From a bacterium (GTDB taxonomy: Bacteria > CAYTYR01 > UBA6262): 64,000 bases of DNA. The position numbers and the translations under genes are program-made. The notes below the pieces were generated by a model that did no database searches, had not been told where the DNA came from, and saw nothing but the letters and a program-made list of their open reading frames with translations. This document shows, piece after piece, positions 1 to 16,549 of this stretch; position 1 is the stretch's first letter; every line of letters starts with the position of its first letter. The stretch spans positions 3,681 through 67,680 of the forward strand of contig JAQTPL010000001.1 in the NCBI GenBank assembly GCA_028712895.1. The letters are read 5' to 3'.

Positions 1-275
1 CCTTCCAGCTCCAGCTTCTTTTTCACCAATTCGGTCATGTGTACAAAATCCCGGCGATCCAGGCCCAGATTATCAAAATCAAGATCCTCCGAGAACCGGT
101 TATGCTCATAAGCGATCCGCAATGCCGTACCACCCATAAAGGCTAATTCATGACCATATTTTGAATCAAAAATAATAGACAATATCTTATATTGCAGGTA
201 CTCCCGCATAATATTCTTCTTGAACGGCTTAAGATAGTCTGGATAAAAAGTTTCAATTTGTTTAAGATCAAGCAT
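1..275 (-). CDS. AbiEii/AbiGii-type nucleotidyltransferase toxin (DUF1814-like), N-terminal part; gene continues past window start
   Basis: Minus-strand translation from ATG at 275-273 reads MLDLKQIETFYPDYLKPFKKNIMREYLQYKILSIIFDSKYGHELAFMGGTALRIAYEHNRFSEDLDFDN..., a typical AbiEii N-terminus. Its start overlaps the stop of the upstream AbiEi-like gene by 8 nt. Confidence 0.6.
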   Translation of the reverse strand, partial: MLDLKQIETFYPDYLKPFKKNIMREYLQYKILSIIFDSKYGHELAFMGGTALRIAYEHNRFSEDLDFDNLGLDRRDFVHMTELVKKKLELE

Positions 276-885
276 TCTGCAGGTACTCCATAAAATTATT
301 TATTCTTCTCAAAAGCTGCTTCTGGCCCATTCTTTCCGCCAGTGCTCTCAGCTTGTCCCGATCACCTTCCTTCAGGAACAGCTCAGCGTTAAACCGGAGC
401 TTAGTAAAATCGTCACTGCTCTTTAGATCGGGATGGATATAGAAATAATCTAATATGGCCTTTTCCCGGCAGGCAATTTTGCCATGCTTGCCGTTATGAT
501 CGATCAGCTCATAGCCGAAAAAAAGGCCGGGCTTCAGCGAGTGATACTTAAAATTGGCCATAGGGGTCTTAAAAGCGCGCGTTACCAGGGTACTGGCAGA
601 GGTTATCCCATACACGCTTTCCGGGATGAGATGGTAAAAAGACAGGGCAGATTCAAAAGAAACATAGGAAGGGTCATATATTTTATTAGCCAAGATAAAC
701 AGGGCAAATTCATCCATCTTTACATCAGTGAAAATATAATAACCCCTGATCACCTTTCTGATATAACCCTTTTCCTGCCAGTTATTCAGTCTGCGGCGAT
801 GAAATTTCGGGTCTACGCTGTGTATATCTGCCAGCGAGAATATGGTAAAATCCTGTAAAGCCTGCTGAAACTCTAAAAACCTCAT
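268..885 (-). CDS. AbiEi-family antitoxin / COG5340-type transcriptional regulator (type IV TA system)
   Basis: The 205-aa ORF has the N-terminal wHTH-like MRFLEFQQALQDFTIFSLADI...FHRRRLNNWQEKGYIRKVIRGYYIF typical of AbiEi antitoxins. It overlaps the downstream nucleotidyltransferase gene. Confidence 0.6.
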   Translation of the reverse strand: MRFLEFQQALQDFTIFSLADIHSVDPKFHRRRLNNWQEKGYIRKVIRGYYIFTDVKMDEFALFILANKIYDPSYVSFESALSFYHLIPESVYGITSASTLVTRAFKTPMANFKYHSLKPGLFFGYELIDHNGKHGKIACREKAILDYFYIHPDLKSSDDFTKLRFNAELFLKEGDRDKLRALAERMGQKQLLRRINNFMEYLQNA

Positions 886-3656: not shown

Positions 3657-4607
3657 TTACAGGTTTATAATTAATCCTTGAATCTTAGGAGGAATCGGGC
3701 CAAAAATATCCTTTAATTCCTTTGATATATACATGTTTCTTCTATGATTTCTAAATCCTTTATAAACTGCTTCGACATCAGAATCAATCAATATACCTAA
3801 AACCGCTTGAAATGGAGTAATTGAATGGGCAGATAAGATATATTTATATTTATCGGATTCAAAATTCTGTTCTAAATAAGTTACTTCCTTATTACAAATA
3901 TTAAGAACCTCATATATTTCATTAACTAATCCATGCATATTTTGAGGTAAATTAGGCAAGCCCCATGTCTTCTGTATAAGCACACATATTCTTGCTTTTC
4001 GAGCAAAGTCTTCGAAGTTATTATCAGGACAAATATTAGCCACCTCATCTATATGTCCAAGGATTTGATCTGATTGTTCAAGCATTGCTTTTATTTGATG
4101 GGCTATTCTAAAGCGAGGCCAAAGTAATTTATCTCCTTTATATAATATATCATGAGTGGCTTTTGCCCAACCATGCTGCAGGAATGTTTTAATTTGTAAC
4201 TCAAAAGGTCTCATCAAATATTCTTTTCCTGGCACACTTACTTGTGGATTATAGTTAATATGCAGATGTAAATCGTCATAGATGAAATTAGAATATTCTT
4301 TGCTACGGTTCTTAATTTGTTTAATCACAATGAACTGTTTTTCTACATCTCTTTTTATTAATTCAACCTGTACATGTGTCGCGACTACAATAGTAGCAGC
4401 ATACAAGTCAATAATATCGTCATGATTAGCATATTTGCCAGTCTCTATTTTTTGGGCAAAACTTTCCTTCTCCTTAATTCTGCTGCTAAATAAACCATCA
4501 AAACGTAAGGAAATTGAATCCAAAACAGGATCAATTTCCCTTTTTAATAATTCTAGTTTTTGCTGAATATTATCATATATTTCTGATATCCTGCTTGAAA
4601 TAATCAT
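3657..4607 (-). CDS. RelA/SpoT-domain nucleotidyltransferase (small-alarmone-synthetase-like, toxSAS-like) with a ~150-aa C-terminal extension
   Basis: The N-terminal half carries the ordered synthetase motifs SRIKEKESFAQK (R-x-K-x3-S-x3-K), DLYAATIVV (D-x2-G-x-R-ii), YDDLHLHINY and FELQIKTFLQHGWAKATHDILYKG (E-x-Q-x-R-T...W-A...H..YK). The start ATG overlaps the stop of the DUF262 gene (ATGA). The gene is very AT-rich. Confidence 0.6.
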   Translation of the reverse strand: MIISSRISEIYDNIQQKLELLKREIDPVLDSISLRFDGLFSSRIKEKESFAQKIETGKYANHDDIIDLYAATIVVATHVQVELIKRDVEKQFIVIKQIKNRSKEYSNFIYDDLHLHINYNPQVSVPGKEYLMRPFELQIKTFLQHGWAKATHDILYKGDKLLWPRFRIAHQIKAMLEQSDQILGHIDEVANICPDNNFEDFARKARICVLIQKTWGLPNLPQNMHGLVNEIYEVLNICNKEVTYLEQNFESDKYKYILSAHSITPFQAVLGILIDSDVEAVYKGFRNHRRNMYISKELKDIFGPIPPKIQGLIINL

Positions 4608-5602
4608 TTTGTTTTAATCAACTTTTTAATAATAATTTTTCTAGACTCTCTGTTAACTTTATCATTAGGTTGAGCGCTAATTGCGTTTTGATAAATTGTA
4701 ACATCTTTTTCTAAGGATTTTATATCGACTTTTTTAATAAACTTAAGTATATTCTTTCTAGAAGCTTCAAAATCAATATCTTCAGCTATTAATTCTAATA
4801 ATGCTGCCCATAAAGAGTAAAAATCAGAATAATTACTTAATCTATTTGAGCATGTATCCAATTTAAGCTTAATAATAGATCCTTTTACCTTATCAAACTC
4901 TTTTCTCGCTTTTTTTTCATTAGGAATTTCTTCATCATATTCAGCATAATAATTATCCAATAAGTCCTTATCTGTAGTGGAAATCCCATGCATCGTTAAA
5001 AAGAACAATTCTGAGATAAATTCAACATCTTTCATCCTTCTTATTGTTGCGGGCCTACTAATGCAAATATCTTCCCAAAAAGGATCGTCTGCAACTTCCG
5101 TTATAAGAGATATAAATCTTCCAGAATATTTAGCATGCCTTAATTCTTGAGCTGTCAACTTCAAAACATTTCTATTCAATCTATCAAATGTATCGTTAAT
5201 TATTTCTTCTTCTGCGCCCTGGAGATTTTCAACTGAAATTTCATATCCCCATAATTTACTTCTATTATCATTTGATAATTCTCCAAAATATTTACCATTC
5301 AGTTCTAAATTGCCAAAATCATCTGGTATAGCTATTTTACCCTGTACAAAATCCATAATAGATTCAAGGCGCTGTTTCCCATCAACTACATAATATGTAA
5401 CAACTCCATTTGGAGCAACAATAGTATTTAGAAATATTGAAGGAGAAGGATAATTTCTCATAATAGTATCTATGAAAAAGCGCTTATACGATTTGGTCCA
5501 AACACTTCTCCTTTGGTATGGAGGATCTAAAACCATTAACTTTCTATTAATTAAATCAATAAACCATGCAATATTTTGCCTGTTCAATGTTCTTTGTATC
5601 AT
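4604..5602 (-). CDS. DUF262 (ParB/Srx-fold, GmrSD N-terminal-like) domain protein
   Basis: The 332-aa protein carries DPPYQRRSVWTKSYKRFFIDTIMRNYPSPSIFL and VVDGKQRLESI, the DGQQR-type DUF262 signature. No DUF1524/HNH half is present. It is translationally coupled to the RelA/SpoT-like gene. Confidence 0.65.
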   Translation of the reverse strand: MIQRTLNRQNIAWFIDLINRKLMVLDPPYQRRSVWTKSYKRFFIDTIMRNYPSPSIFLNTIVAPNGVVTYYVVDGKQRLESIMDFVQGKIAIPDDFGNLELNGKYFGELSNDNRSKLWGYEISVENLQGAEEEIINDTFDRLNRNVLKLTAQELRHAKYSGRFISLITEVADDPFWEDICISRPATIRRMKDVEFISELFFLTMHGISTTDKDLLDNYYAEYDEEIPNEKKARKEFDKVKGSIIKLKLDTCSNRLSNYSDFYSLWAALLELIAEDIDFEASRKNILKFIKKVDIKSLEKDVTIYQNAISAQPNDKVNRESRKIIIKKLIKTK

Positions 5603-5708: not shown

Positions 5709-6827
5709 TTAAATTGTGCATTGTCCTTCATTGCTAATTACTACATTTTGTTTCTTCCAATCTTTAGGCAATAAAGTATCTTCATTATTACTAAAATAAG
5801 AAGCCCTTACTATTCCCACTAGATCTTGTATTTCATTTGCATATTGATTACCTTTGTTATATCGTTCTATAATTTCTCTTTCTAACCAATACTCTGATTT
5901 ATACATATCTTCTTTATTTTCATATTCTTTTAAAATATTATTATAGTCATAAAGTATTTTATTTACTCCAATTTCAACGCTTTTATTATCAGAAATTATT
6001 CTATCAGTTTTCACTTGCATAATACCTAATGTTTTTGAATGACCTACTTTAAATAGTAAAACCTCAAGCATACGAATAAGCTTAGGCCTATTAAAAGACT
6101 CATAAATCATAATTGAATAAATTAATGCTTTTAATTTTGCATTTGTTACTTTATCTTCTATTATAGATTTGTATTTATGCTGATAAGAGAGAAACTTATA
6201 ATCAATATATTTGCTCTTCCTTTTTTCTGTATCTCTTGGTGACAGTTTAATATTATTAAACAATTCATATAGAAAAAATATAATTATTAACCATAATTCG
6301 TTACCAATTGTTTGCATATCTGGAAATAAGTAACTTCTTACAACTATTAGCTTCCTGTATATAAAATATGATATAAATATTATTATTACTGCACATAATA
6401 ATTCCTTATTCCAGTCAAGTAACTTTGCTCTTCCGAGAGCTAAGTTAAATAGCAATCTAAATGCTACATAGTATACGCTTATCAAGTAAATACTATTTAC
6501 ATATATATCCATCGAAAGTGCATATAATATAACTGAAATTATAATTATATATACAACTGGCGAAAATATTCTATAAATAAAATTAAACATTGGTGCTTCA
6601 TCTGCCTTCATAAATATTGATAGTTCCATATATCCCTTTGAGTATGACTGTTTACCAATAATGTTAATCAGAATAAACTGAAGTAATGCTAATCCAAAAT
6701 GTAATGTATAAGTATCCCAACTCATTTTGATTTCACCTACTTTATTAAATAGACCATGCAACGTGGTCAGGCACTGAAACGTGAAAGTAATTCTTTGTCT
6801 GGATTCAGAATTAGTATTGTGTCTCAC
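5709..6827 (-). CDS. integral membrane protein with a C-terminal soluble domain (hypothetical)
   Basis: The 372-aa ORF likely starts at the internal Met (MSWDTYTL, ~6725). It has about 6 hydrophobic helices followed by a ~150-aa polar domain. The domain bears a weak ESF...GIMQ...YN.G resemblance to lytic transglycosylases, which is uncertain. A 10-nt gap separates it from the upstream protease gene. Confidence 0.5.
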   Translation of the reverse strand: MRHNTNSESRQRITFTFQCLTTLHGLFNKVGEIKMSWDTYTLHFGLALLQFILINIIGKQSYSKGYMELSIFMKADEAPMFNFIYRIFSPVVYIIIISVILYALSMDIYVNSIYLISVYYVAFRLLFNLALGRAKLLDWNKELLCAVIIIFISYFIYRKLIVVRSYLFPDMQTIGNELWLIIIFFLYELFNNIKLSPRDTEKRKSKYIDYKFLSYQHKYKSIIEDKVTNAKLKALIYSIMIYESFNRPKLIRMLEVLLFKVGHSKTLGIMQVKTDRIISDNKSVEIGVNKILYDYNNILKEYENKEDMYKSEYWLEREIIERYNKGNQYANEIQDLVGIVRASYFSNNEDTLLPKDWKKQNVVISNEGQCTI

Positions 6828-6836
6828 ATATTAATT

Positions 6837-7724
6837 CTAAATTTGTATAAATGAAGAACCTAAATGGTTTTCAATAATTTTACCTGCTTGTGTTGCCGAT
6901 AAGGTATGAATAAAAGTATGATGAACCGTTAAGACAGCATCTTGAAGTTCATTATCTTGCTCTAACATAGATATTCTTAATCCAACTTCTATACATCGTT
7001 CTGGAGGTAAATGTCTAGAATGGGATAAAGTTACATCATGACTACCTATTACTTCCACAATTCTATTAGCAGTATCGGAACGCAGTGGTTCTGACAAATC
7101 AGCTAGCATCCCTGTCCCTAGCCACTTTTTTACCAAATATTCAGACCAATTAATAGCTTTTTGGCATTCTCCAATAAAAGCAGGTGGGTATTTAGCTATT
7201 ATCGGTTGCCAAACTGGTATTTTTGCAGGGTTTGCCTTTATTTCATTATATGCTTTTTCAAACTCTTCAATAACGCCTTGGGCTGGAATACCATTAAATT
7301 GTGGGTCAATTGGACCAAGACTGGAGTGTTTACCCATTAATATTTCCTTGCAAGCGCAAGCAATCATAGTGCCCGCAGACATAGCAAGTTGAGGGACAAT
7401 TGCTCTTATATTTGTCCCAAACAAACTACGTAAATAGTCTACTAATGATTCTGTAGCAGCTGTTTCACCACCGGGAGTATGTAAAATTAAATCTAGTCCT
7501 TTCGATTTGTCCATACCTTTTAAAGTAGACATGAAACCATTTTTATCATTATCATTAATCGAAGCGACTAAAGGATGCATTTGTTTTTGAAGCCAACCAG
7601 AATAATACGCTATAACATTACGCCCTGTCAGTTCATAAAGCTTTTTGAGATATTTTCTTCTAATAATGTCAAAGGTGCTTCCTGATCCTTTTATTTCTTC
7701 TAATAACTCTTCCCAGTTTCCCAT
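6837..7724 (-). CDS. Clp-fold serine protease, SDH/S49-like family
   Basis: The 295-aa protein carries ILHTPGGETAATESLVDYLRS and AMSAGTMIACAC (a Ser nucleophile in a GxSxG-like context), typical of ClpP-fold SDH-type proteinases. Confidence 0.5.
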   Translation of the reverse strand: MGNWEELLEEIKGSGSTFDIIRRKYLKKLYELTGRNVIAYYSGWLQKQMHPLVASINDNDKNGFMSTLKGMDKSKGLDLILHTPGGETAATESLVDYLRSLFGTNIRAIVPQLAMSAGTMIACACKEILMGKHSSLGPIDPQFNGIPAQGVIEEFEKAYNEIKANPAKIPVWQPIIAKYPPAFIGECQKAINWSEYLVKKWLGTGMLADLSEPLRSDTANRIVEVIGSHDVTLSHSRHLPPERCIEVGLRISMLEQDNELQDAVLTVHHTFIHTLSATQAGKIIENHLGSSFIQI

Positions 7725-7882
7725 TTGCCACTCCTATCAGATAACGTATTATCCGTAATCAATATTTTCCACTTATCATCGGTTAGAAAATTACTAATAT
7801 TCCTTAAGTCTGTTTCTTTCCCATGGCCAATACCTAATATTTTGTATAGTTCTATTATCTTTGTTTTAGTAATATTGCGCAT
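7700..7882 (-). CDS. small hypothetical protein (60 aa), first gene of the protease/membrane-protein cluster
   Basis: This ORF-track entry is AT-rich like its neighbours and overlaps the protease start by 25 nt. No family was recognised. Confidence 0.3.
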   Translation of the reverse strand: MRNITKTKIIELYKILGIGHGKETDLRNISNFLTDDKWKILITDNTLSDRSGKWETGKSY

Positions 7883-7922
7883 TGATTACTCCTTAATAAT
7901 TATTTTAGGACAGATTTTTTGA

Positions 7923-8384
7923 TTATCTAGAGTTGTATTCTATCATTAATTTATCTACCAACTTAAAGACTCTTTTATTAATCTGACATTCCCAAAAAGT
8001 TAAAACCTTCCATCCTAAACTCTTTAATTCTTTATGTTTCCTTTTATCTCTCTCAATATTATTTCTAAACTTGTTGCTCCAAAATCTAATATGTGTCTTC
8101 GGCTTTGAAGGATTACAATATGGGCAGCGATGCCAATAACATCCGTTGACGAATATTGCAATTTTCTTATTTAGATAGCATATATCAGGCCTTCCTAATA
8201 CCTTTTTGCAGTGAAGCCTATACCCTCTTAATCCAGCCTCTCTTAGAGCCTTTCTAAGTATCAGCTCAGGCTTTGTGTTCTTTGCCTTAATAGCACTCAT
8301 TATACGAGATGTAATTTCTTTTTTAGGGATTGGAGCGCGACCATCTCTAATGTATTGATACCCCTTGTTACTATTTAAATACAT
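7923..8384 (-). CDS. vsr: very short patch repair endonuclease Vsr
   Basis: The 153-aa protein carries SRIMSAIKAKNTKPELILRKALREAGLRGYRLH and GRPDI...KIAIFVNGCYWHRC, matching the Vsr catalytic and zinc motifs. It lies directly downstream of the C5-MTase. Confidence 0.85.
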   Translation of the reverse strand: MYLNSNKGYQYIRDGRAPIPKKEITSRIMSAIKAKNTKPELILRKALREAGLRGYRLHCKKVLGRPDICYLNKKIAIFVNGCYWHRCPYCNPSKPKTHIRFWSNKFRNNIERDKRKHKELKSLGWKVLTFWECQINKRVFKLVDKLMIEYNSR

Positions 8385-9683
8385 TTATAAAGCCTCATCA
8401 AGAGTCTGGAATAGTGCTTTCCCAATTTTATCAACTACACCAACAACTAATGCATTTCCCATAAAAAAGGCACGTCTTGAATCAGGGACACCTTTTGTAT
8501 GATTAACCGGGAACATATTTAATTTTTCAAGCTCAATCGGAGTAAGCCGTCTATATTTACCAATCTTAGTTTTAATTACATGCTTAAATCTTGATGGTGT
8601 GGCTCCTCCCTCGCCCGTAATGATAGTCCTGGAAGGCTTATCAAGAAGATCTGGGAAAGACATCGAGCCTTCAGAATAATTGTATTCAAAACCTCCTGAG
8701 CTTTTTCGTAGTTCTTTTTTTGCACCTTTAAGATATTTCCATCTTGGGATATCCTTTTCGTCAATATAGTACTCTAGAGGCACTTCACTCTCTTTTTGTA
8801 ATATTTGTCCTAGCGTTTGCCTTTCCCCTGAATATTTTGGTGCAGTATGAATAGTGAATACTTCCCTATCTTTCATGATCCCTGTGTTCTGAAATGGTGA
8901 CATATTACGATCACCTTTAAAAACACCTGATATTTCAAATAAGTCTCCTTCCAATTTAAAAAATCCTTCGTTTATAGGTATGTCAGTTTTATTTTGGATA
9001 ATTGGGAAAGCCTTGGTAATAGGTCCATCTGATAAAAACCAATAAGCAAGATGCTCTCGTTCTATAATTCTTTTATAAATCTCTGAACCTTTTTTATATG
9101 CTAGTATATATACTCGCCTTCTTCTTTGTGGCATTCCATAGTCTGCAGCATTTATTACGCGCCATTCTACTATATATCCTAGGTCAGACAAGGAAGCTAA
9201 CATTATTCCAAAATCACGGCCTCGCTGTTTTGCAGGTGATTTTAGTAGTCTATCTACATTTTCTAAGAAGAGATAGTTTGGTGAATGTTGTCCTTTCTCT
9301 TTTAAAATTCTATGAATTTGCCACCACAGGACACCTTTTTTCCCTACAAGGCCCTCAGCCTTACTTAAAGTGCGCGCCACCGAATAATCCTGACATGGGA
9401 ACCCACCTACAAGCAAATCATGGTCAGGTATATCATTAATTGATACTTTTGTTATATCCTCATTAGAATGCCCCTTACTACTAAACCGCAATTTATAAAT
9501 ATCAGACGCGTGTTGCTGTTTTGTCGTCGGTTCCCATTGATTGCTCCAAACAACCTCATAATTTCCTTCGTTTTTCTTGCCAGGCTCTCCTTCTAGGCCA
9601 AGCCTAAAACCACCTACCCCTGCAAATAATTCTATTACCTTCAAAGGCTTTCCTTTTGTCATATAACAAGTCTCCATAATCAA
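8385..9683 (-). CDS. dcm: DNA (cytosine-5)-methyltransferase
   Basis: Motif I is LKVIELFAGVGGFRLGLE, motif IV is GGFPCQDYSVA, motif VI is FLENV, and motif X is GNALVVGVVDKI near the C-terminus. The true start is probably at MTKGKPLKV. Confidence 0.85.
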   Translation of the reverse strand: MIMETCYMTKGKPLKVIELFAGVGGFRLGLEGEPGKKNEGNYEVVWSNQWEPTTKQQHASDIYKLRFSSKGHSNEDITKVSINDIPDHDLLVGGFPCQDYSVARTLSKAEGLVGKKGVLWWQIHRILKEKGQHSPNYLFLENVDRLLKSPAKQRGRDFGIMLASLSDLGYIVEWRVINAADYGMPQRRRRVYILAYKKGSEIYKRIIEREHLAYWFLSDGPITKAFPIIQNKTDIPINEGFFKLEGDLFEISGVFKGDRNMSPFQNTGIMKDREVFTIHTAPKYSGERQTLGQILQKESEVPLEYYIDEKDIPRWKYLKGAKKELRKSSGGFEYNYSEGSMSFPDLLDKPSRTIITGEGGATPSRFKHVIKTKIGKYRRLTPIELEKLNMFPVNHTKGVPDSRRAFFMGNALVVGVVDKIGKALFQTLDEAL

Positions 9684-9700
9684 ATAATTAATAATGCTTT

Positions 9701-10561
9701 CTACTTATTTCCAATATAGAATATCTTGATGAGGTCCTCTGTTGAGATAGGTGATACCCCTCGTCCTCTAGCGAATCCATCTATGAATTTACCTATCATG
9801 ATTTGATTATCCTCAATTAAAAAAGCTAAAAATGCAATAAATGTAAGGACTGTATTTATTCTGCCTGTGTTACGAAGCCAATCTGGTTTTTTTTCTTTCT
9901 CTTGAGCTTTTTTTATGGTTCTATAGAAATACTTGCAGTCTTCATTCCATGCGATTAATTCAATATAATATAATAAAGCTTCAAATGACATATCTGCAAT
10001 TTGAGGTATAATTTTTGAAAATTGTTCATAAGCCTTTTGAGGTGGTATATATTCATAAAATGGCTCCATATATTTTGAACCTTCATTTTCTTGCATTGCC
10101 CCATATAAATAAGTAATATCCCTACTATCACATGCACATTCTTCATTTGCCTTTTTAGTATGATCACACATATATGCCATTCTATATAACATAACACCAA
10201 ATAATCTTATAAGCTCCTTTTTTGACTCATCGCATTCCTTCAGTTCTTGATACATTTTGCCTGCAATATTGCCAAACGATAAATTATCCATTCTTTTTTT
10301 ATCAAGCGTGATTAACTCTGGTCTAAAATCCCATGGCCGGGATGATGCTCTTTCTGCCTCTTTTCCTGGATATTGAATCCTTAAACTCTCGTTCTTTTTA
10401 GTAAACTTTATTAATATTTGCTTCTCTTTCTTTCCATAAATCAACCCTACTCTTGGTAAATCTCTAACCCATAAAATATTGTATTTTCGTTTTTCTGTAG
10501 ATGGTGCTCTTATTCCACTACTTTCTAAGTTAGTAGGCAAGATATCCCGAACATTAAGCAT
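9701..10561 (-). CDS. putative type II restriction endonuclease partner of the C5-MTase (no recognisable family)
   Basis: The 286-aa AT-rich ORF sits 17 nt upstream of the MTase in the same orientation. The call rests on position alone. Confidence 0.35.
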   Translation of the reverse strand: MLNVRDILPTNLESSGIRAPSTEKRKYNILWVRDLPRVGLIYGKKEKQILIKFTKKNESLRIQYPGKEAERASSRPWDFRPELITLDKKRMDNLSFGNIAGKMYQELKECDESKKELIRLFGVMLYRMAYMCDHTKKANEECACDSRDITYLYGAMQENEGSKYMEPFYEYIPPQKAYEQFSKIIPQIADMSFEALLYYIELIAWNEDCKYFYRTIKKAQEKEKKPDWLRNTGRINTVLTFIAFLAFLIEDNQIMIGKFIDGFARGRGVSPISTEDLIKIFYIGNK

Positions 10562-10873: not shown

Positions 10874-11590
10874 TTACACCATTGCTTTTATGTGAGAATC
10901 TACTATTCTTTCTCCTAATAGCTCTATAGCTTTCCTGGCAATTTCAATATCCATTGGAATCTTTTCAATAACACTTCTCTTAAATGACAAACCGAATCTC
11001 ATCCCCCCATTTGTTTCTATAGAAATAGCAATTGTTTTAGTTAAAAAATACTTTACTATCATAGCCAAACATAACACCCATCCAATTAAAGGTATAATAT
11101 CTGTAAAAATGATTCTATGCCAATTGCTTAATAGGTCAATTTGCATTGTATAAATATTATAATATCTCTGAAATAAGTTATATCCTATGCTTAATATCGC
11201 TATTATTGGCCCTATAATAATGAACTGTACTGGTTTTATAAATCCGCAACTAGCGCTTGCTACAGATTTAAGTGACACAACATGATTCACTTCACAAAAA
11301 AAGCTTTTACTTTTAAAACTAATTTCCTTATTTGTAACTAACAGCTGCGTTACCATATCAAATTTAAGCAATGTTAATAACCATGAAAATATACCGGGAT
11401 GTCTTCCTTTAATTTCTATTATTATATTCGATTCTACAGAAGGCGTGTCGTTTATCTTAAATTTCTTTAGAACAAATACTTTCCCAGGAAAGTTAAATTG
11501 ACTACTAGCTTTTTTAGCTAACCAGAATCCAATTATTAAGACTATTACTCCTATTGATATCAATACAATTAAATAAGTTTGTCCGTACAT
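10874..11590 (-). CDS. hypothetical membrane protein (238 aa)
   Basis: It has an N-terminal TM helix and further hydrophobic segments. It is AT-rich and flanked by REP-like repeats. Confidence 0.45.
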   Translation of the reverse strand: MYGQTYLIVLISIGVIVLIIGFWLAKKASSQFNFPGKVFVLKKFKINDTPSVESNIIIEIKGRHPGIFSWLLTLLKFDMVTQLLVTNKEISFKSKSFFCEVNHVVSLKSVASASCGFIKPVQFIIIGPIIAILSIGYNLFQRYYNIYTMQIDLLSNWHRIIFTDIIPLIGWVLCLAMIVKYFLTKTIAISIETNGGMRFGLSFKRSVIEKIPMDIEIARKAIELLGERIVDSHIKAMV

Positions 11591-11701: not shown

Positions 11702-11953
11702 CTATTCTAGCAGAAGAGCCTTAATCTCCGCAAGTTTCCTTTGATAATCAATTCTATCTTCAACAAAAGGCTTATATGTTTCCGGATCAATCTCCAGTAG
11801 TTCCGTAAATTCACAAATCTTAGGCTTATTATACGAAATAAACTCTTGGTACGATGATGAATGCCAGGAATTAGGATGTTCCACTAAATTTGCCGTGGCT
11901 GGATTTAAATGGATATACCTGGTCAAATGTAAGAGCTGGGCATCTGTCTCCAC
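11702..11953 (-). pseudogene. truncated RAYT/IS200-like transposase (C-terminal 83 aa only)
   Basis: QLLHLTRYIHLNPATANLVEHPNSW...YQRKLAEIKALL aligns at about 50% identity with the C-terminus of the full-length RAYT at 12089..12745. The HuH N-terminal half is absent. Confidence 0.6.
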
Positions 11954-11983
11954 TAAAACATTTTTGAACTTGACCTAATAATT

Positions 11984-12082
11984 GGGGTCAGGGCTAAACT
12001 ATCAACAAAAACTTCCCCCCGTACACCCTATCAGACACTCCTCCACCCCGTAGACCCTTTCAGACACCGCGTAGGTGTCCGG
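11984..12082. repeat. REP-like composite repeat (copy B), inverted relative to copy A with a 42-nt internal duplication
   Basis: This is the reverse complement of 3435-3512, apart from an inserted partial repeat (ccgtacaccctatcagacac...). Confidence 0.7.
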
Positions 12083-12088
12083 AGGGGT

Positions 12089-12745
12089 TCATGATTCTAA
12101 AATAAGATGCTTTATCTGTGCCAGCTCTCTTTGATATCCTACGCGATCTTTTACAAAAGATGTATAATCCTCAGCTTTAATATCAACGACATCTGTAAAT
12201 CTGCAGAATGATTTGCTGTTACTAATGCCAGTATATTCTTGATAAGAAGAATTTATCCACTCTTTTGGATCATTTACGATGAAAGATGTCACCGGATTCA
12301 AATGTACATATCTGGTCAGGTGCAATAATTGAGTGTCATCCTTAACCAGGACATTCTTAAATCTGCTCTCCCATAATGGACCCTTCCGTCCATGTTTTTT
12401 ATTGAAATATTTGGTATAGCTATTTAGAATATTATTCATGAACTTAGAAATACCTTCATCCTTTGTTTGTTTCAATATAAGATGCAGATGTGTAGGCATT
12501 AGACAATAAGCAATTGTTTCAACAGACTCTTCTTCGGCAGAGATTTGATCATTAAGTATTCTCTGCTTAGGCTCGGAGAGTTCTAGGAACTTAGCGAACC
12601 TTATTGCTGGTTTTTCCGCATGATAATAGCGGATCACTTCTATCATTCTGTTAAATTCTTCCTGGTCATTGAAAATCACATACCCGGCAATACTTTTCGT
12701 AAAAACATGGTAAACCTGCCCATTTGCCAGCGCTTCTTTTCTCAT
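12089..12745 (-). CDS. REP-associated tyrosine transposase (RAYT) / IS200-like TnpA
   Basis: The HuH motif is CLMPTHLHLIL and the catalytic Tyr region is LHLTRYVHLNPV. The protein is 218 aa. Confidence 0.8.
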   Translation of the reverse strand: MRKEALANGQVYHVFTKSIAGYVIFNDQEEFNRMIEVIRYYHAEKPAIRFAKFLELSEPKQRILNDQISAEEESVETIAYCLMPTHLHLILKQTKDEGISKFMNNILNSYTKYFNKKHGRKGPLWESRFKNVLVKDDTQLLHLTRYVHLNPVTSFIVNDPKEWINSSYQEYTGISNSKSFCRFTDVVDIKAEDYTSFVKDRVGYQRELAQIKHLILES

Positions 12746-12940: not shown

Positions 12941-13408
12941 TTATAATCTAAAATTAAGTTCTAGTTGCGGATTTTCCTTCTTAACTTCTATCAAGATTTG
13001 CTTCAATAGTTGTATGCCATCTTTAAAAGCCTTATGGCTCTCTTTTTTGCTCACTAATATGCCGGCTTCATAGGTCATTTCGTTTCTTTTCCTGCGCATA
13101 GTCTCGAATTGGTCAGTGATATCTCTGTAACGTTTCCCCAATATGGCACTGGTTATTTCTACCACAGTTCGATGTTGTGCTCCATCATCAGGAACATACC
13201 CGTTGCTCAATAATAAAGCTCTACCTGCCTTGAGCATGGCCATATACGCCATAACATAAGTTGCCCGTTCGGCAATCGGTAATGTCTTTTGCGCTTCCTG
13301 CAAATCCAATATTGATTGTTTCAGTAACGCCTCTATCTGAACTATACCGGCCTTCTGTTTTCTTAATTTTCCTTCCTTAAGCAGCCTTTCTATGAGTTTT
13401 TGCGGCAT
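12941..13408 (-). CDS. HEPN domain protein (partner of the adjacent nucleotidyltransferase)
   Basis: It carries a PF05168-like LKAGRALLLSNGYVPDDGAQH motif. It overlaps the MNT gene by 32 nt. Confidence 0.55.
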   Translation of the reverse strand: MPQKLIERLLKEGKLRKQKAGIVQIEALLKQSILDLQEAQKTLPIAERATYVMAYMAMLKAGRALLLSNGYVPDDGAQHRTVVEITSAILGKRYRDITDQFETMRRKRNEMTYEAGILVSKKESHKAFKDGIQLLKQILIEVKKENPQLELNFRL

Positions 13409-13964
13409 TTACCTCCCCTTTCAGTATTATTATTTTCCCGTTAGTGATCAGGTTAAGAAAACTGCCAGATTTAGCTGTTTCTTTCTTAAATTCGTCTTTA
13501 TCATAATGGGTGAAATTGATTTCGCGACCTATTTTGGATTCTAAATTGCGGACCTTGCGGGTGAATTCGTCCAAGGGGAATTGTCCAACTACTAATAGAT
13601 CTATATCCGAGGATTTATTTTCGTTTTCTTTGGCATATGAGCCATATATGAAAGCCAGGGATATACCTTTATATTTTGCTATTATATTTCTTAATGATCC
13701 CTCTATACCTTCTGTCTTGAAGATTATCTCTTTAATTTCTTTGTATAAAGGGTATTCTTTGCTGAGGGAATAATATTTTGAATTGCCGCGGATGAACGAT
13801 TTGAAAAGGCCTTCTTTTTCCAGCTTATTCAGCTCCCTGGATAAATTACCGGGGTCGTCATTGATAATGGCTGCTATTTCCCGGACATAATAATTCTCAT
13901 CAGGATGGCTAAAGAAATAGGTTAAAACGCTCTTTCTCAATTTGGTGTTGATAAGTATAGACAA
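13377..13964 (-). CDS. nucleotidyltransferase (MNT) with N-terminal wHTH
   Basis: It has the signature GSYAKENENKSSDIDLLVV (GS...DxD) and an N-terminal ArsR-like helix YYVREIAAIINDDPGNLSRELNKLEKEGL. Confidence 0.7.
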   Translation of the reverse strand: MSILINTKLRKSVLTYFFSHPDENYYVREIAAIINDDPGNLSRELNKLEKEGLFKSFIRGNSKYYSLSKEYPLYKEIKEIIFKTEGIEGSLRNIIAKYKGISLAFIYGSYAKENENKSSDIDLLVVGQFPLDEFTRKVRNLESKIGREINFTHYDKDEFKKETAKSGSFLNLITNGKIIILKGEVNAAKTHRKAA

Positions 13965-14159
13965 GCTTATATCCTCATATTGTATTTATTACATCATACG
14001 TTGTAAATAATACAACAGTCATGCTATTTTGTCAAGTTCTTCAGTCGGAAGAAACGGGGTTAGTCCTTGAAACTTGAAACTCTCTCCCCACCCAAAACTA
14101 CCCGCCAAGACCCTCCACCACCCTCCAATAAGCTTTGGCGGGCTAAAGAGCTATGGCGG

Positions 14160-14549
14160 TTATAATAGCCAGTACTCTTTAGGCGAAATAATCTTAATGC
14201 TTTTATACTGTTTTAATACAAGCAGATCCTTATCGCCAGTAATAATAACATCTATCCCATTAGCATCTGCATCTGCCAAGATATGATTATCATCCTTGTC
14301 CCGGCAGCAATCAGGGATGTTTTTCCCAGCAACACCTTCCTGGAAATGTTTTTCTATAAATACAGTCATATCCTTTATTATGGAAGCGGTAAACTTGAAT
14401 TTGGTCCTGAAATTATGGTGGAATTCTTTAAGGATATACTGGGTATAGAATACTTCGTGGGTGTTGACCGCGCTTTGAACTATGTCGTAACAGTTTCCAT
14501 TACTCAGGAAAGCCGCAATTAGGACATTGGTGTCAAAAAGGATCTTCAT
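14160..14549 (-). CDS. PIN-domain toxin (VapC-like)
   Basis: KILFDTNVLIAA places an Asp at position 6. DADANGIDVIITGDKDL supplies the C-terminal acidic residues. Confidence 0.7.
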   Translation of the reverse strand: MKILFDTNVLIAAFLSNGNCYDIVQSAVNTHEVFYTQYILKEFHHNFRTKFKFTASIIKDMTVFIEKHFQEGVAGKNIPDCCRDKDDNHILADADANGIDVIITGDKDLLVLKQYKSIKIISPKEYWLL

Positions 14550-14767
14550 GAGATCTTTTCCAGGATCTCATCTTCTGAAAGCACAATACCTCTCTTCGCT
14601 GCCTCCAGCATGGCTTTTTTGCGCAACTCATCAAATTCGGTCTTAAAAAAGTAATCCTTCAGGGCCTTGCGCACTACTTCACTGATATTGGCGTTTTCTT
14701 TCTTGCTATTATCTTTAAGCTTGCGGAGTATTGCGTCCGGCAGGCTTATGGATACACTGTTTCTCAT
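14546..14767 (-). CDS. ribbon-helix-helix (CopG-like) antitoxin
   Basis: The 73-aa ORF overlaps the PIN start by 4 nt. ISLPDAILRKLKD is a beta-strand followed by helices, as in RHH folds. Confidence 0.6.
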   Translation of the reverse strand: MRNSVSISLPDAILRKLKDNSKKENANISEVVRKALKDYFFKTEFDELRKKAMLEAAKRGIVLSEDEILEKIS

Positions 14768-14884: not shown

Positions 14885-15199
14885 TTACTTCTTTTCTTTA
14901 AGTTTGGCTATGACATCGGCGGTTTTCATTAAATTCCTGCCTTCTTCGGTGACCACTAAATTAAAAAAGTCACATCGCATACAATTGCTGACCTTTCGGG
15001 CAAAAGAGCCCTGGATCTTGGAGTCACAAAAAGTCCCGGCGATCGCCCAGCAAACACGCCCGCCATTTATGCCGCCATGTACACCAAAGACACGAGTATT
15101 TGTGGCTGCCGGACATACGCCTAATTCATTAACCTTGCTGCCACCAGGCTCCCGGCCGCACCTTTTTAATTCCCAGCAGTTGATTTTCAATATTGGCAT
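14885..15199 (-). CDS. small cysteine-rich protein, paralog 1 (unknown family)
   Basis: The 104-aa protein has 7 Cys in the pattern NCWELKRCGRE...GVC...GVHGG.NGGRVCWAIAGTFC...NCMRC. It shares about 45% identity with 34140..34439. Confidence 0.55.
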   Translation of the reverse strand: MPILKINCWELKRCGREPGGSKVNELGVCPAATNTRVFGVHGGINGGRVCWAIAGTFCDSKIQGSFARKVSNCMRCDFFNLVVTEEGRNLMKTADVIAKLKEKK

Positions 15200-15289: not shown

Positions 15290-16549
15290 CTAATTATTCG
15301 CGGGAAATACGCTTTCGTAGAATTCTCTGGCCCTGGCTTGCTGCTGTTTTGTGCTGGCAGAGATATCCGCCAGGTTATGTTCCAGTACTTTGGCCACATT
15401 GTGGTCCAGCATGCCTTTTTCATCCAGGTTCTTGATAATGGCCATGGCTTCATCCAGGGTCATCCCTGCCCGATAAGGACGGTCCTCGGTCAAAGCGGTG
15501 AAGATGTCGGCTACAGCCATGATCCGCGAGATCATGCTTAATTTATTGGCCCGTAGATGGAACGGGTACCCGGACCCGTCGAGTTTTTCGTGGTGAAACG
15601 CGGCCCATTCAGCGATCTCTTCAAGTCCTTTTACTGTGCAAAGCGTCGTATAGGTGAAATAAGTGTGCTGTTTCATGATGGCAAATTCCTCGGTCGTAAG
15701 CTTATCCTGTTTTTCCAGGATAGTGTTGGGGACCATCAGTTTGCCCAGGTCATGCAGGTTGCCTGTTATTTCCATCAGTTCGATCTCCCATTCAGTCAAA
15801 CCGAAATATTTGGCAATGAGCCCGGCAGAGGTCGAGACCCCGGCTGAATGTGTCGAGGTGAACCTGGACCGGAAATCGATCAAGTTGCGGAATATTTTAG
15901 ATACTTCTTTCAGGTCCGAGAGGTCCAATACAACGCTTCTGTAGGTGGCCTCGCGGTAAAGGAGGGAATATATCCGGGGTGAAGTCACAGTCAGCCAAAA
16001 ATCTTCTCTCTTGGCGATATCTTTGAAAATATCGATTAAGCCAACCTGGATGTCAGTCGCAGCCAGCCGGGAGACTTGCTCGGCAATATTGCGGTCCTGG
16101 TGCAGAATGTATTTGGAGCGGTTGATGCTTCTTTCCACATAGTCTGCCAGGTTCAGTATTTGGGCTTGCGCAGTCAAAGGATTTTCAACTGTTTGTACCC
16201 AGTCCTGCCATTTGTGATGATGCAGCCTGATGATCTTCGCGGCATGCGCGAATACCGGTACGTCTTTGAGCAGGGATTCTCCCAGGATACAATGCGGCTC
16301 GGTCATGATCGTATCAGCCTCATGCAGATTGATCTTTTCTTCGGCAGTCAATGCCCCCACATCATGGATCAGGGCGGCGATCACCAGGTTTTCTATATCT
16401 TCCCTGCCCATACCGGTTTTTCTGGCAAGTTCCCAAGCGATATAGGCGGTCCTGATCTGGTGCTGCACAAGCTCCGGGCTGGCCAAGTCCAGGGCGTCGG
16501 AAAACGACAGGACCAGATTAAATAAATTGATGGATATTCCCCTATACAC
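15290..16549 (-). CDS. HD-GYP domain protein (tandem HD domains; c-di-GMP phosphodiesterase-like)
   Basis: The N-terminal HD is IAALIHDVGAL. The C-terminal HD-GYP is GNLHDLGKLMVP, HHEKLDGSGYP. Confidence 0.75.
   Translation of the reverse strand: MYRGISINLFNLVLSFSDALDLASPELVQHQIRTAYIAWELARKTGMGREDIENLVIAALIHDVGALTAEEKINLHEADTIMTEPHCILGESLLKDVPVFAHAAKIIRLHHHKWQDWVQTVENPLTAQAQILNLADYVERSINRSKYILHQDRNIAEQVSRLAATDIQVGLIDIFKDIAKREDFWLTVTSPRIYSLLYREATYRSVVLDLSDLKEVSKIFRNLIDFRSRFTSTHSAGVSTSAGLIAKYFGLTEWEIELMEITGNLHDLGKLMVPNTILEKQDKLTTEEFAIMKQHTYFTYTTLCTVKGLEEIAEWAAFHHEKLDGSGYPFHLRANKLSMISRIMAVADIFTALTEDRPYRAGMTLDEAMAIIKNLDEKGMLDHNVAKVLEHNLADISASTKQQQARAREFYESVFPANN

What the first reader, a model, noticed from the sequence alone, without database searches (positions are those of the whole stretch)
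5709..7882. Small ORF, Clp-fold serine protease and polytopic membrane protein cluster beside the R-M system
Seen in sequence:
- Three co-directional AT-rich genes with a 10-nt gap and a 25-nt overlap.
- A 60-aa protein is followed by a 295-aa ClpP-fold SDH/S49-like protease (ILHTPGGETAATE..., AMSAGT).
- Then comes a 372-aa protein with ~6 TM helices plus a soluble C-domain.

Inference:
- Membrane-protein plus protease pairs recur in phage-defense islands, but this pairing was not recognised as a named system.
- The membrane protein's C-domain has a weak ES-F...G-I-M-Q...Y-N-x-G pattern reminiscent of lytic transglycosylases, but the spacing is atypical.
- It could be an abortive-infection module (protease-triggered membrane effector) or a cargo gene set.
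Basis: partly seen in the sequence, partly recalled or inferred. Interest (0 to 1): 0.55.

Follow-up and report, generated by a model that had tools for sequence, protein, structure and literature searches.

The report
Protease pair plus unrelated membrane lysozyme-like gene
The three genes are real, but they are not one system: a small protein and a Clp-fold protease form a widely travelling two-gene module seen in bacteria, archaea and prophages, and the membrane protein next to it is an unrelated, solitary lysozyme-like gene that lies beside it only in this defence island.

Summary
All three ORFs exist, on the minus strand. The third most likely starts at ATG 6725, giving 338 aa rather than 372 and a 111-nt gap rather than about 10 nt.

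The protease is a Pfam PF01972 (SDH-type) Clp-fold serine protease with an invariant Ser116. Its 60-aa upstream neighbour belongs to a previously undescribed small acidic protein family. An ORF ends at the protease start in 76 of 81 loci. A held-out HMM hit only these ORFs.

The pair occurs in bacteria, archaea, phage genomes and at least 128 IMG/VR contigs. It often sits beside integrases or defence genes (Pycsar, Tiamat, restriction-modification).

It has no conserved third gene. The membrane protein is absent from about 170 protease loci, and the protease is absent from 90 membrane-protein loci.

The pair most likely corresponds to the DefenseFinder category FS_HP_SDH_sah (hypothetical protein + SDH protease), whose mechanism is unknown. 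I could not test that membership here.

The parts
7700..7882 (-). Small acidic protein (60 aa), the conserved partner of the protease. Motif 1 is E-I-x-x-h-[FY]-x-x-L-G-[LI]. Motif 2 is h-h-h-x-x-[ND]-[SNT]-[TS] (here ILITDNT). AAGGAG Shine-Dalgarno at 7889-7894.
   Evidence: An ORF ends at the protease start in 76 of 81 loci. A held-out HMM hit 21 of 35 test loci, and every hit was the abutting ORF out of 2651 ORFs. It is the top hit among 1083 window ORFs, E 0.006. It is 46% identical to the L011 partner, and codon-position differences are 1144/835/1635. It has no Pfam, PHROG or PDB match.
6837..7724 (-). SDH-type (PF01972) Clp-fold serine protease, 295 aa, cytosolic (no signal peptide or TM segment). 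AGGAG Shine-Dalgarno at 7731-7735. The start overlaps the small ORF by 25 nt.
7377..7379 (-). Codon of Ser116 (in AMSAGT), the predicted nucleophile. The oxyanion-hole TPGG motif (residues 83-86) is at 7467-7478.
   Evidence: Invariant in 32 family members. In the profile alignment it aligns with the serine of the A-S-M-G motif of S. pneumoniae ClpP 1y7o; that this serine is the ClpP nucleophile is my own knowledge.
6726..6836 (-). 111-nt spacer between the protease stop and the probable start of the membrane-protein gene. It holds a 5-bp hairpin followed by a T-rich tail at 6752-6768.
   Evidence: Sequence read. The terminator-like hit is not above chance (2 found, 3.4 expected).
5709..6725 (-). 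Solitary membrane protein, 338 aa (the alternative GTG start at 6827 would give 372 aa). It is not part of the protease module.
   Evidence: The start is supported by P0001, by the alignment of 41 sequences and by the Shine-Dalgarno sequence. The family has 1278 cluster representatives. It has no conserved neighbour.
6255..6725 (-). N-terminal domain of five hydrophobic helices (residues 1-157) with conserved polar residues: DEAPxFNF, R90, W105, P135 and NELW.
   Evidence: AF2 helices 3-30, 45-69, 81-96, 105-127 and 141-156. Invariant columns. Hydropathy and charge.
5712..6236 (-). C-terminal lysozyme-like / lytic-transglycosylase-like domain (residues 164-338). Glu209 (codon 6099-6101) lies in the ES motif. 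G234-I-M-Q237 is at 6015-6026. Y289-N290 is also conserved.

Best explanation
The stretch holds two independent units that lie side by side in a low-GC defence/toxin-antitoxin island.

Unit 1 (7882-6837) is a translationally coupled two-gene module. It encodes a roughly 60-aa acidic protein followed by a cytosolic SDH-type Clp-fold serine protease.
- The module moves as a pair between bacteria, archaea and temperate phages.
- In phages it sits in accessory (moron) positions. In chromosomes it often sits beside other defence genes.
- I infer that it is a self-contained defence or toxin-antitoxin-like module of the kind DefenseFinder lists as FS_HP_SDH_sah (hypothetical protein + PF01972 protease).
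- In this reading the small protein is the protease's cognate inhibitor or substrate, expressed in fixed proportion through the overlapping reading frames.
- Loss or displacement of the small protein during infection would free the protease. The protease would then cleave a target that is either phage-borne or universally conserved, blocking phage production.

Unit 2 (6725-5709) is a solitary membrane protein. It has five TM helices and a lytic-transglycosylase/lysozyme-fold domain with an intact catalytic-type Glu. It most likely acts on peptidoglycan or a related glycan. It is not a partner of the protease.

Shown: the gene structures, the folds, the conserved residues, the conservation of the pair, the absence of any conserved third gene, and the contexts.

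Inferred: the defence role, the inhibitor/substrate relation, the trigger and the target.
For: The pair is the conserved unit:
- An ORF abuts or overlaps the protease start in 76 of 81 loci, typically by 8, 17, 26 or 35 nt.
- The held-out HMM found only these ORFs. There were no off-target hits among 12,499 ORFs of the viral loci.
- The codon-position pattern is that of a coding sequence.

Spread:
- More than 8000 homologues were found, and the top 120 listed are 62-82% identical.
- The 80 species genomes include Methanosarcinales, Bathyarchaeota, Nitrososphaerota and many bacterial phyla.
- The protease occurs in 7 GenBank phage genomes and in 128 IMG/VR contigs.

Accessory or defence contexts:
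- After HicAB in Porphyromonas phages.
- Between the late regulator and the lysis genes in a Mu-like phage.
- Near the integrase in Gordonia phage BeeGee and in a P. aeruginosa element.
- In the nin region of a Klebsiella prophage.
- Convergent with integrases in viral contigs.
- Next to Pycsar, Tiamat TmtA and type III R-M genes.
- Next to methylases, AAA_21 proteins, integrases and transposases.
- In this window, next to Dcm/Vsr, DUF262 + RelA_SpoT, HEPN/NTase and PIN/RHH.

Protease competence: Ser116, the TPGG motif, D140 and several histidines are invariant, and the fold is Clp-like.

Independence of the membrane gene:
- Reciprocal absence.
- A 111-nt spacer.
- GC 25.4% for the membrane gene against 35.9% for the protease.

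The DefenseFinder category name exists.
Against: - No experiment and no accessible paper links this subfamily to phage defence. The Fillol-Salom 2022 paper is not held.
- PADLOC has no model that hits either protein.
- I could not test whether the 'HP' of FS_HP_SDH_sah is homologous to this small protein.
- Many protease loci have ordinary metabolic neighbours, so defence-island enrichment was not quantified.
- The window's small ORF matches the family HMM only weakly (E 0.006).
- The small-ORF HMM detects a partner in only 13 of 84 viral loci. It detects none in the 40-50% identical phage and plasmid copies. There the upstream ORFs share only a loose C-terminal [NT]-[ST]-[ST] pattern.
- The high conservation of the protease would also fit a non-defence function.
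- In this genome all the genes are co-directional, so co-transcription of the membrane gene cannot be excluded.
Confidence: 0.6

Rival explanations
1. The three genes form one abortive-infection cassette in which the protease activates the membrane protein as a lytic effector.
For: The genes are co-directional and adjacent in a defence island. The membrane protein has a lysozyme-like domain that could in principle lyse the cell.
Against: The two families never co-occur elsewhere: 0 of 86 genome and phage loci, 0 of 87 viral loci and 0 of 90 membrane-protein loci. The genes are separated by a 111-nt spacer and differ by 10 points in GC. Both families occur alone with variable neighbours.
Confidence: 0.05
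2. The pair is a plain toxin-antitoxin or addiction module that stabilises mobile elements and has no anti-phage role. The protease is the toxin and the small acidic protein is a labile antitoxin.
For: The small acidic gene lies upstream and overlaps a larger enzyme gene. The small partner evolves much faster than the enzyme: mean column identity is 17% (A4) against 63% (A3). The pair lies among TA pairs such as HicAB, HEPN/NTase and PIN/RHH.
Against: No toxicity data exist. The small protein has no recognisable DNA-binding fold for autoregulation. The boundary between TA and abortive infection is blurred, so this overlaps the main explanation.
Confidence: 0.2
3. The small protein is a precursor that the protease processes into a signalling or bioactive peptide.
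For: A short, poorly conserved peptide carries a strongly conserved [ND]-[SNT]-[TS] site (T or S in 63 of 66 sequences) and lies next to a dedicated protease.
Against: No signal peptide, exporter or modification enzyme accompanies the pair. Both proteins look cytosolic. The conserved C-terminal tail is a by-product of the frame overlap (my own reading of the codons, see the report).
Confidence: 0.1
4. The protease is a phage head-maturation protease, or a remnant of a prophage structural module.
For: There are weak hits to ClpP-related head-maturation protease profiles: NF045542 at 1.9e-7 and phrog_53 at 9e-12.
Against: Those scores are far below the curated cut-off (31 against 120 bits). The best PHROG is phrog_11747, of unknown function. 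In phages the gene lies outside the portal-protease-scaffold-capsid order, and it also occurs in archaeal and bacterial chromosomes without phage genes. The window has no structural genes nearby.
Confidence: 0.03
5. The protease is a housekeeping SppA/NfeD-type membrane quality-control protease.
For: There is fold similarity to NfeD 1510-N and SppA and weak NfeD1b_N and SppA profile hits.
Against: The hits are below the cut-offs: 25.7 against 40 bits, and 24.8 against 155 bits. There is no TM segment or signal peptide, and no stomatin (Band_7) family appears among the 25 most frequent Pfam families of 138 neighbours. The distribution is patchy and crosses domains, at 55-80% identity.
Confidence: 0.03
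6. The membrane lysozyme-like protein is itself a defence effector. It would act alone or with the downstream DUF262 + RelA_SpoT pair, whose GC content it shares.
For: It lies in a defence island. Its GC of 25% is close to that of the DUF262 and RelA_SpoT genes, 29-31%. One homologue lies next to ResIII and DUF3800 genes.
Against: No DUF262 or RelA_SpoT homologue occurs in 90 membrane-protein loci. Several homologues lie in housekeeping or cell-wall contexts with PASTA, transpeptidase or PF00912 transglycosylase genes. Only 2 viral contigs carry it.
Confidence: 0.1

Closest known systems
FS_HP_SDH_sah (DefenseFinder category). From my memory it derives from Fillol-Salom et al. 2022, Cell 185:3248, who tested PICI-encoded systems.
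   Same: A two-gene unit of a hypothetical protein plus a PF01972 protease, carried by mobile elements. 'SDH_sah', 'serine dehydrogenase proteinase', is my recollection of the former Pfam short name for PF01972. The existence of the DefenseFinder gene name is confirmed. The 'serine dehydrogenase proteinase' label appears on structural relatives.
   Different: I could not obtain the reference sequences. Homology of the 'HP' to this 60-aa family is therefore untested, as is a hit by the DefenseFinder profile. The published system comes from enterobacterial PICIs. This copy is in an uncultured bacterium, and its family extends to archaea. No mechanism is published in any source I could reach.
SDH-type Clp-fold serine proteinases (Pfam PF01972; NCBIfam NF047768), MEROPS family S49
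   Same: The Pfam score is above the gathering threshold. The fold is Clp/crotonase. The nucleophile Ser lies in a G-x-S-x-G-like AMSAGT motif, with a TPGG oxyanion loop.
   Different: The Pfam match covers only the N-terminal 160 residues. NF047768 scores 82 bits against a cut-off of 250. The C-terminal roughly 130 residues form a family-specific helical domain with invariant H229, S234, H235, R237, H238, H268 and H269.
Protease-plus-cognate-partner immune modules, for example CalpL/CalpT in type III CRISPR and Lit protease with the Gol peptide (from my own knowledge)
   Same: The concept is the same: a dedicated protease encoded next to, or acting on, a small specific partner in an anti-phage context.
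   Different: The protease folds are unrelated (Lon and metalloprotease). No sensor domain such as SAVED is present here. This is an analogy only.
Family 1 lytic transglycosylases (Slt70, MltC, MltE, MltF; Pfam SLT PF01464) and goose-type lysozyme
   Different: The match is below the Pfam threshold and has no sequence-level PDB match. The domain is fused to a conserved 5-TM domain instead of a lipoprotein anchor or signal peptide. The charge distribution predicts the catalytic domain on the cytoplasmic side. The spacing between motifs is atypical.

Membership tests
PF01972 SDH-type Clp-fold serine proteinase | Profile score above Pfam's gathering threshold | tested here: met
   72.5 bits against 31.3, E 3.8e-20, residues 23-159.
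PF01972 SDH-type Clp-fold serine proteinase | ClpP/crotonase fold | tested here: met
PF01972 SDH-type Clp-fold serine proteinase | Nucleophilic Ser at the ClpP-equivalent position | tested here: met
   Ser116 is invariant in 32 sequences. It aligns with the serine of the A-S-M-G motif of ClpP 1y7o; that this serine is the ClpP nucleophile is my own knowledge.
PF01972 SDH-type Clp-fold serine proteinase | Ser-Asp-His triad in that order (the family description is recalled from memory) | tested here: inconclusive
   D140 and five histidines (229, 235, 238, 268, 269) are invariant. Residues 231-236 have low confidence.
NCBIfam NF047768 Clp_like_SDH (equivalog) | Score above the curated cut-off | tested here: not met
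   82.4 bits against 250. It is a relative, not an equivalog.
FS_HP_SDH_sah defence system | A PF01972 ('SDH_sah') protease gene | tested here: met
   The DefenseFinder gene name is confirmed.
FS_HP_SDH_sah defence system | An adjacent 'HP' gene homologous to the reference HP | not testable with these tools
   A conserved upstream small gene exists. The reference HP sequence and profile are not available here, and the source paper is not held.
FS_HP_SDH_sah defence system | Anti-phage activity | not testable with these tools
   This needs an experiment.
   0 hits in 86 protease loci (865 kb), 87 viral protease loci and 90 membrane-protein loci (517 kb).
NfeD / stomatin operon protease | NfeD profile above cut-off, and a stomatin (Band_7) partner gene | tested here: not met
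   NfeD1b_N scores 25.7 bits against 40. No Band_7 family appears among the 25 most frequent Pfam families of 138 neighbours.
SppA signal peptide peptidase | TIGR00706 above cut-off | tested here: not met
   24.8 bits against 155.45.
ClpP-related phage head-maturation protease | Profile above cut-off, and a position in the head-morphogenesis module | tested here: not met
   NF045542 scores 31.2 bits against 120. The gene lies in moron or integrase-proximal positions in phages.
Family 1 lytic transglycosylase (Pfam SLT PF01464) | Profile above the gathering threshold | tested here: not met
   13.7 bits against 21.3, E 0.048.
Family 1 lytic transglycosylase (Pfam SLT PF01464) | Lysozyme-like fold | tested here: met
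Family 1 lytic transglycosylase (Pfam SLT PF01464) | Catalytic Glu (E-S), G-L-M-Q and A-Y-N-x-G motifs (the motif definitions are from my own knowledge) | tested here: met
   E209, G234, M236 and Q237 are invariant and N290 and Y295 nearly invariant in 41 sequences. The window reads ES, GIMQ and YNKG.
Family 1 lytic transglycosylase (Pfam SLT PF01464) | Catalytic domain exposed to the periplasm or cell wall | tested here: inconclusive
   The family-wide charge count puts 7.9 K+R in the 28 residues after TM5. That favours a cytoplasmic C-domain, although the acidic loop 1 argues the other way.

The most novel reading that the evidence does not exclude
The small acidic protein and the SDH-type Clp-fold protease form a self-contained toxin-antitoxin-like abortive-infection module. 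It works unchanged in bacteria, archaea and their viruses. That would imply a protease target that is universally conserved, such as a translation component, or a target carried by the module itself. The small-partner family is undescribed. Its invariant [ND]-[SNT]-[TS] site would be the pseudo-substrate or cleavage site that gates the protease.
Probability: 0.3. Interest if true: 0.6.

Novelty: new member of a known kind. Interest (0 to 1): 0.33.

Why it matters
The proposed new three-gene abortive-infection system does not hold up, which spares follow-up on a chance juxtaposition.

What remains is modest but useful:
- The protease of a listed but mechanistically unknown defence category has a conserved, translationally coupled small partner family that has no Pfam or PHROG entry.
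- The pair is very widespread: more than 8000 protease homologues, occurrence in both prokaryotic domains, and at least 128 viral contigs.
- This gives a concrete hypothesis (small protein as inhibitor or substrate) and conserved sites for mutagenesis: Ser116 in the protease and the N-S-T site in the partner.

Separately, the membrane protein defines an unannotated family of about 1300 clusters. It joins a 5-TM domain to a lytic-transglycosylase-like domain of uncertain topology.

Tried and rejected
- PADLOC scan of the three proteins: no hits.
- Literature: searches for SDH-family or S49 proteases in a defence context found nothing usable. The Fillol-Salom 2022 paper is not held by DOI or PMID. 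The only trace is the DefenseFinder gene name in one 2026 paper.
- E. coli genomes searched with the Klebsiella copy of the pair: no match. Only a distant SDH protease (25% identity) is present in E. coli prophages, so no link to PICI sequences could be made.
- Looked for a conserved third gene by all-against-all clustering of neighbours in 80 genome loci, 80 viral loci and 90 membrane-protein loci. Only lineage-specific clusters appeared.
- Tested whether the proteins upstream of membrane-protein homologues are hidden proteases: no Pfam hits.
- Sequence-level PDB searches for the membrane protein and the small protein: nothing significant. Pfam and PHROG scans of 66 small proteins: nothing.
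- A database search with the small-protein profile found only 5 weak hits. E-values for 60-aa proteins in a database of 5.8 billion sequences are limiting.
- The afdb50 fold library was unavailable.
- I considered the conserved C-terminal 'AxLE' or 'xA' tail of the small proteins as a functional motif. I rejected it because it is the out-of-frame reading of the protease's conserved N-terminal codons.
- I considered the hairpin at 6752-6768 as a terminator. The number of such sites is not above the shuffled expectation.
- No tRNA marks the island.
Full report
**1. The observation**

All three ORFs are on the minus strand:
- 7700-7882, 60 aa.
- 6837-7724, 295 aa.
- 5709-6827, 372 aa if read from a GTG.

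The 25-nt overlap between the first two is exact. Both have strong Shine-Dalgarno sequences: AAGGAG at 7889-7894 and AGGAG at 7731-7735.

The third gene most likely starts later:
- The GTG has no Shine-Dalgarno sequence.
- The identical database protein P0001 is 338 aa.
- 40 homologues align from Met35 onward.
- ATG 6725 has AGGTGA 8 nt upstream.

The real spacing to the protease is therefore 111 nt, not about 10. The spacer contains a small hairpin at 6752-6768, but the count of such hairpins is not above chance.

The genes lie in a low-GC island of roughly 3.6-14.8 kb. The genes have 25-40% GC and the flanks 47-49%. The island also carries:
- Dcm, Vsr and an unassigned 286-aa ORF.
- A DUF262 + RelA_SpoT-like pair.
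- An IS200/RAYT-like transposase.
- HEPN/NTase and PIN/RHH pairs.

**2. The protease**

- Pfam PF01972 (SDH-type Clp-fold serine proteinase) scores 72.5 bits against a cut-off of 31.3.
- NCBIfam's equivalog model, the SppA profile and the head-maturation profile all score far below their cut-offs.
- The best viral family is phrog_11747, of unknown function, at 1e-96 over the full length.
- In the viral structure library the nearest models are labelled 'serine dehydrogenase proteinase'. I recall this as the former Pfam name of PF01972.
- Ser116 (AMSAGT) aligns with the serine of ClpP's A-S-M-G motif, which I know as the ClpP nucleophile. It is invariant, as are TPGG, D140 and a cluster of histidines in a family-specific C-terminal helical domain.
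- There is no signal peptide or TM segment.

**3. The small ORF is the protease's conserved partner**

I fetched 80 species-representative genome loci carrying protease homologues of 51-81% identity. They include Methanosarcinales, Bathyarchaeota, Nitrososphaerota and many bacterial phyla.

Evidence that the small ORF is a real, linked gene:
- In 76 of 81 loci, an ORF on the same strand ends at the protease start. The usual overlaps are 8, 17, 26 or 35 nt.
- The ORFs share two motifs. The first is E-I-x-x-h-[FY]-x-x-L-G-[LI]. The second is a hydrophobic stretch followed by [ND]-[SNT]-[TS], with T or S in 63 of 66 sequences.
- Their median net charge is -3.
- An HMM trained on 35 loci and run on all 2651 six-frame ORFs of 35 held-out loci gave 23 hits, 21 of them at E<1e-3. 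Every hit was the ORF abutting the protease.
- Nucleotide differences between aligned pairs fall 1144/835/1635 on codon positions 1/2/3, the pattern of a coding sequence.
- The window's 60-aa ORF is the best hit among 1083 ORFs in the whole window (E 0.006). It is 46% identical to the partner in L011.
- The family has no Pfam, PHROG or PDB match.

One caution. The recurrent C-terminal endings '...xA*' and '...xAxLE*' are the out-of-frame reading of the protease's conserved first codons (ATG CCN AAY TGG AAY GA). They should not be read as a motif.

In more distant phage and plasmid copies (40-50% identical proteases) the HMM finds nothing. A short upstream ORF with a C-terminal T/S-rich pattern is still present. 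The P. aeruginosa copy again overlaps the protease start by 8 nt.

**4. Where the pair lives**

In phage and prophage genomes it sits in accessory positions:
- After HicAB in Porphyromonas phages.
- Between the late regulator and the lysis genes in a Mu-like Shewanella phage.
- Between the tail genes and the integrase in Gordonia phage BeeGee.
- Next to the integrase in a P. aeruginosa 44-kb element.
- In the nin region of a Klebsiella prophage.

At least 128 IMG/VR contigs carry it. Several have a convergent tyrosine integrase next to it.

In chromosomes the immediate neighbours are heterogeneous. They repeatedly include defence or mobility genes:
- A Pycsar-like pair beside the closest relative, L010 (81% identity).
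- A Tiamat TmtA homologue (L014).
- A type III methylase (L052).
- Methylases, AriA/AAA_21 ATPases, integrases and transposases.
- Dcm/Vsr again in L044.

I did not compute a formal enrichment.

**5. No third partner**

- Clustering the neighbours of 80 genome loci and 80 viral loci shows no gene family that accompanies the pair consistently.
- The membrane protein has no homologue in 86 protease loci (865 kb) or in 87 viral protease loci.
- I fetched 90 loci carrying membrane-protein homologues. None encodes an SDH protease (517 kb), and none encodes DUF262 or RelA_SpoT homologues.
- The membrane gene also differs in composition: 25.4% GC against 35.9% for the protease. This is weak evidence, because membrane proteins are biased toward AT-rich codons.

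The three-gene cassette is therefore a local juxtaposition.

**6. The membrane protein**

- The family has 1278 cluster representatives at E<=1e-3 among 1.84 billion. Almost all are about 330 aa. Only 2 viral contigs carry it.
- The AF2 model (pLDDT 88) shows five hydrophobic helices followed by an all-helical C-domain.
They fall in the canonical order for family 1 lytic transglycosylases.
- The Pfam SLT profile itself scores below threshold.
- The TM domain also has conserved polar residues (DEAPxFNF, R90, W105, P135, NELW). It is probably more than an anchor.
- Topology is unresolved. The 28 residues after TM5 carry on average 7.9 Lys+Arg across the family, which by the positive-inside rule puts the lysozyme-like domain in the cytoplasm. 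The acidic first loop argues the other way.
- Some homologues sit beside PASTA, transpeptidase or PF00912 glycosyltransferase genes. Others sit in unannotated variable regions, and one lies next to ResIII and DUF3800 genes.
- My best reading is a solitary glycan-cleaving or glycan-binding membrane enzyme of cell-envelope metabolism. It may have been captured in the island, but it is not coupled to the protease.

**7. How the pair probably works (inference)**

These features fit a toxin-antitoxin-like or abortive-infection module:
- A small, fast-evolving acidic protein is encoded immediately upstream of, and overlapping, a highly conserved enzyme.
- The pair is mobile as a unit.
- It sits in moron and defence-island positions.
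- It is retained in both bacteria and archaea.

In this reading the small protein gates the protease as an inhibitor or pseudo-substrate, with the [ND]-[SNT]-[TS] site as the candidate contact. Cross-domain portability argues that the target is either within the module, on the invading virus, or universally conserved. Precedents for dedicated protease-partner pairs in immunity exist, such as CalpL/CalpT and Lit/Gol (my own knowledge), but they use unrelated folds.

**8. Comparison with what is known**

DefenseFinder lists a category FS_HP_SDH_sah, with a gene named SDH_sah. From memory, it derives from PICI-encoded systems tested by Fillol-Salom et al. 2022 and consists of a hypothetical protein plus a PF01972 protease.

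The architecture here matches. I could not test whether the HP is homologous, or whether the DefenseFinder profiles hit these proteins, because the paper is not held and PADLOC has no such model. I therefore file the pair as a probable new member of that known but mechanistically unexplained kind.

**9. Verdict**

- The fold guesses are right.
- The proposed three-gene system is not supported.
- Interest is moderate to low. The useful residue is the recognition of a conserved small-partner family for a very widespread mobile SDH protease, and of an unannotated family that joins a 5-TM domain to a lytic-transglycosylase-like domain.

Noticed in passing
window 3657-5602 (minus strand): A DUF262/GmrSD_N protein (PADLOC NsnA 1.7e-32, PD-T4-2_A 2.9e-20) overlaps by 4 nt a RelA_SpoT-like nucleotidyltransferase (Pfam 1.2e-10; PADLOC candidate PDC-S33 5.8e-8). 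This is a candidate two-gene defence pair directly downstream of the finding.
   Followed up: partly
window 7923-10561 (minus strand): Vsr + C5 methylase + a 286-aa ORF with no Pfam, PADLOC, NCBIfam or PHROG hit. The ORF is presumably the cognate restriction endonuclease, of an unassigned family.
   Followed up: no
window 10874-11590 (minus strand): A 238-aa predicted membrane protein with no family match, lying between the R-M genes and the transposase.
   Followed up: no
window 11702-12745 (minus strand): A REP-associated tyrosine transposase / IS200-like gene (218 aa). Next to it is an 83-aa ORF that repeats its C-terminal part, so this looks like a truncated duplicate.
   Followed up: no
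window 12941-14767 and 268-885 (minus strand): The island also holds a HEPN + nucleotidyltransferase pair and a PIN + RHH pair. An AbiEi-like antitoxin gene lies just outside it.
   Followed up: no
L010:4175-5613, L014:1911-5129, L052:3927-5795: Relatives of the protease pair lie immediately next to three defence genes or pairs: a Pycsar-like pair (TIR-like + PycC cyclase), a Tiamat TmtA homologue, and a type III methylase.
   Followed up: partly
small ORFs of L010-L089, last 2-5 codons: The recurrent endings '...xA*' and '...xAxLE*' of the small proteins are explained by the frame overlap with the protease's conserved N-terminal codons (MPNWNE). The overlap lengths step by 9 nt: 8, 17, 26, 35.
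   Followed up: yes
L092:2989-3984 and 47 E. coli genomes: A distant SDH-family protease (25% identical, PF01972 2.3e-14) sits between the Q antiterminator and the holin of lambdoid prophages and phage-plasmids in 47 of 5426 complete E. coli genomes. It is in the opposite orientation and has no obvious small partner.
   Followed up: partly
window 5712-6255 (residues 158-338 of the membrane protein): The segment after the last TM helix is very rich in Lys and Arg across the whole family. That predicts a cytoplasmic lysozyme-like domain, which would be unusual for a peptidoglycan-cleaving enzyme.
   Followed up: partly
window 14885-15199 (minus strand): A 104-aa Cys-rich ORF (CW..C...C motifs) with no Pfam hit lies directly upstream of an HD-GYP-type (HD_5) protein at 15290-16549.
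   Followed up: no
L095:145-1923 and P0177, P0219, P0233: A few membrane-protein homologues are fused to extra C-terminal domains (592-754 aa). One carries a Beta_helix/NosD domain.
   Followed up: no
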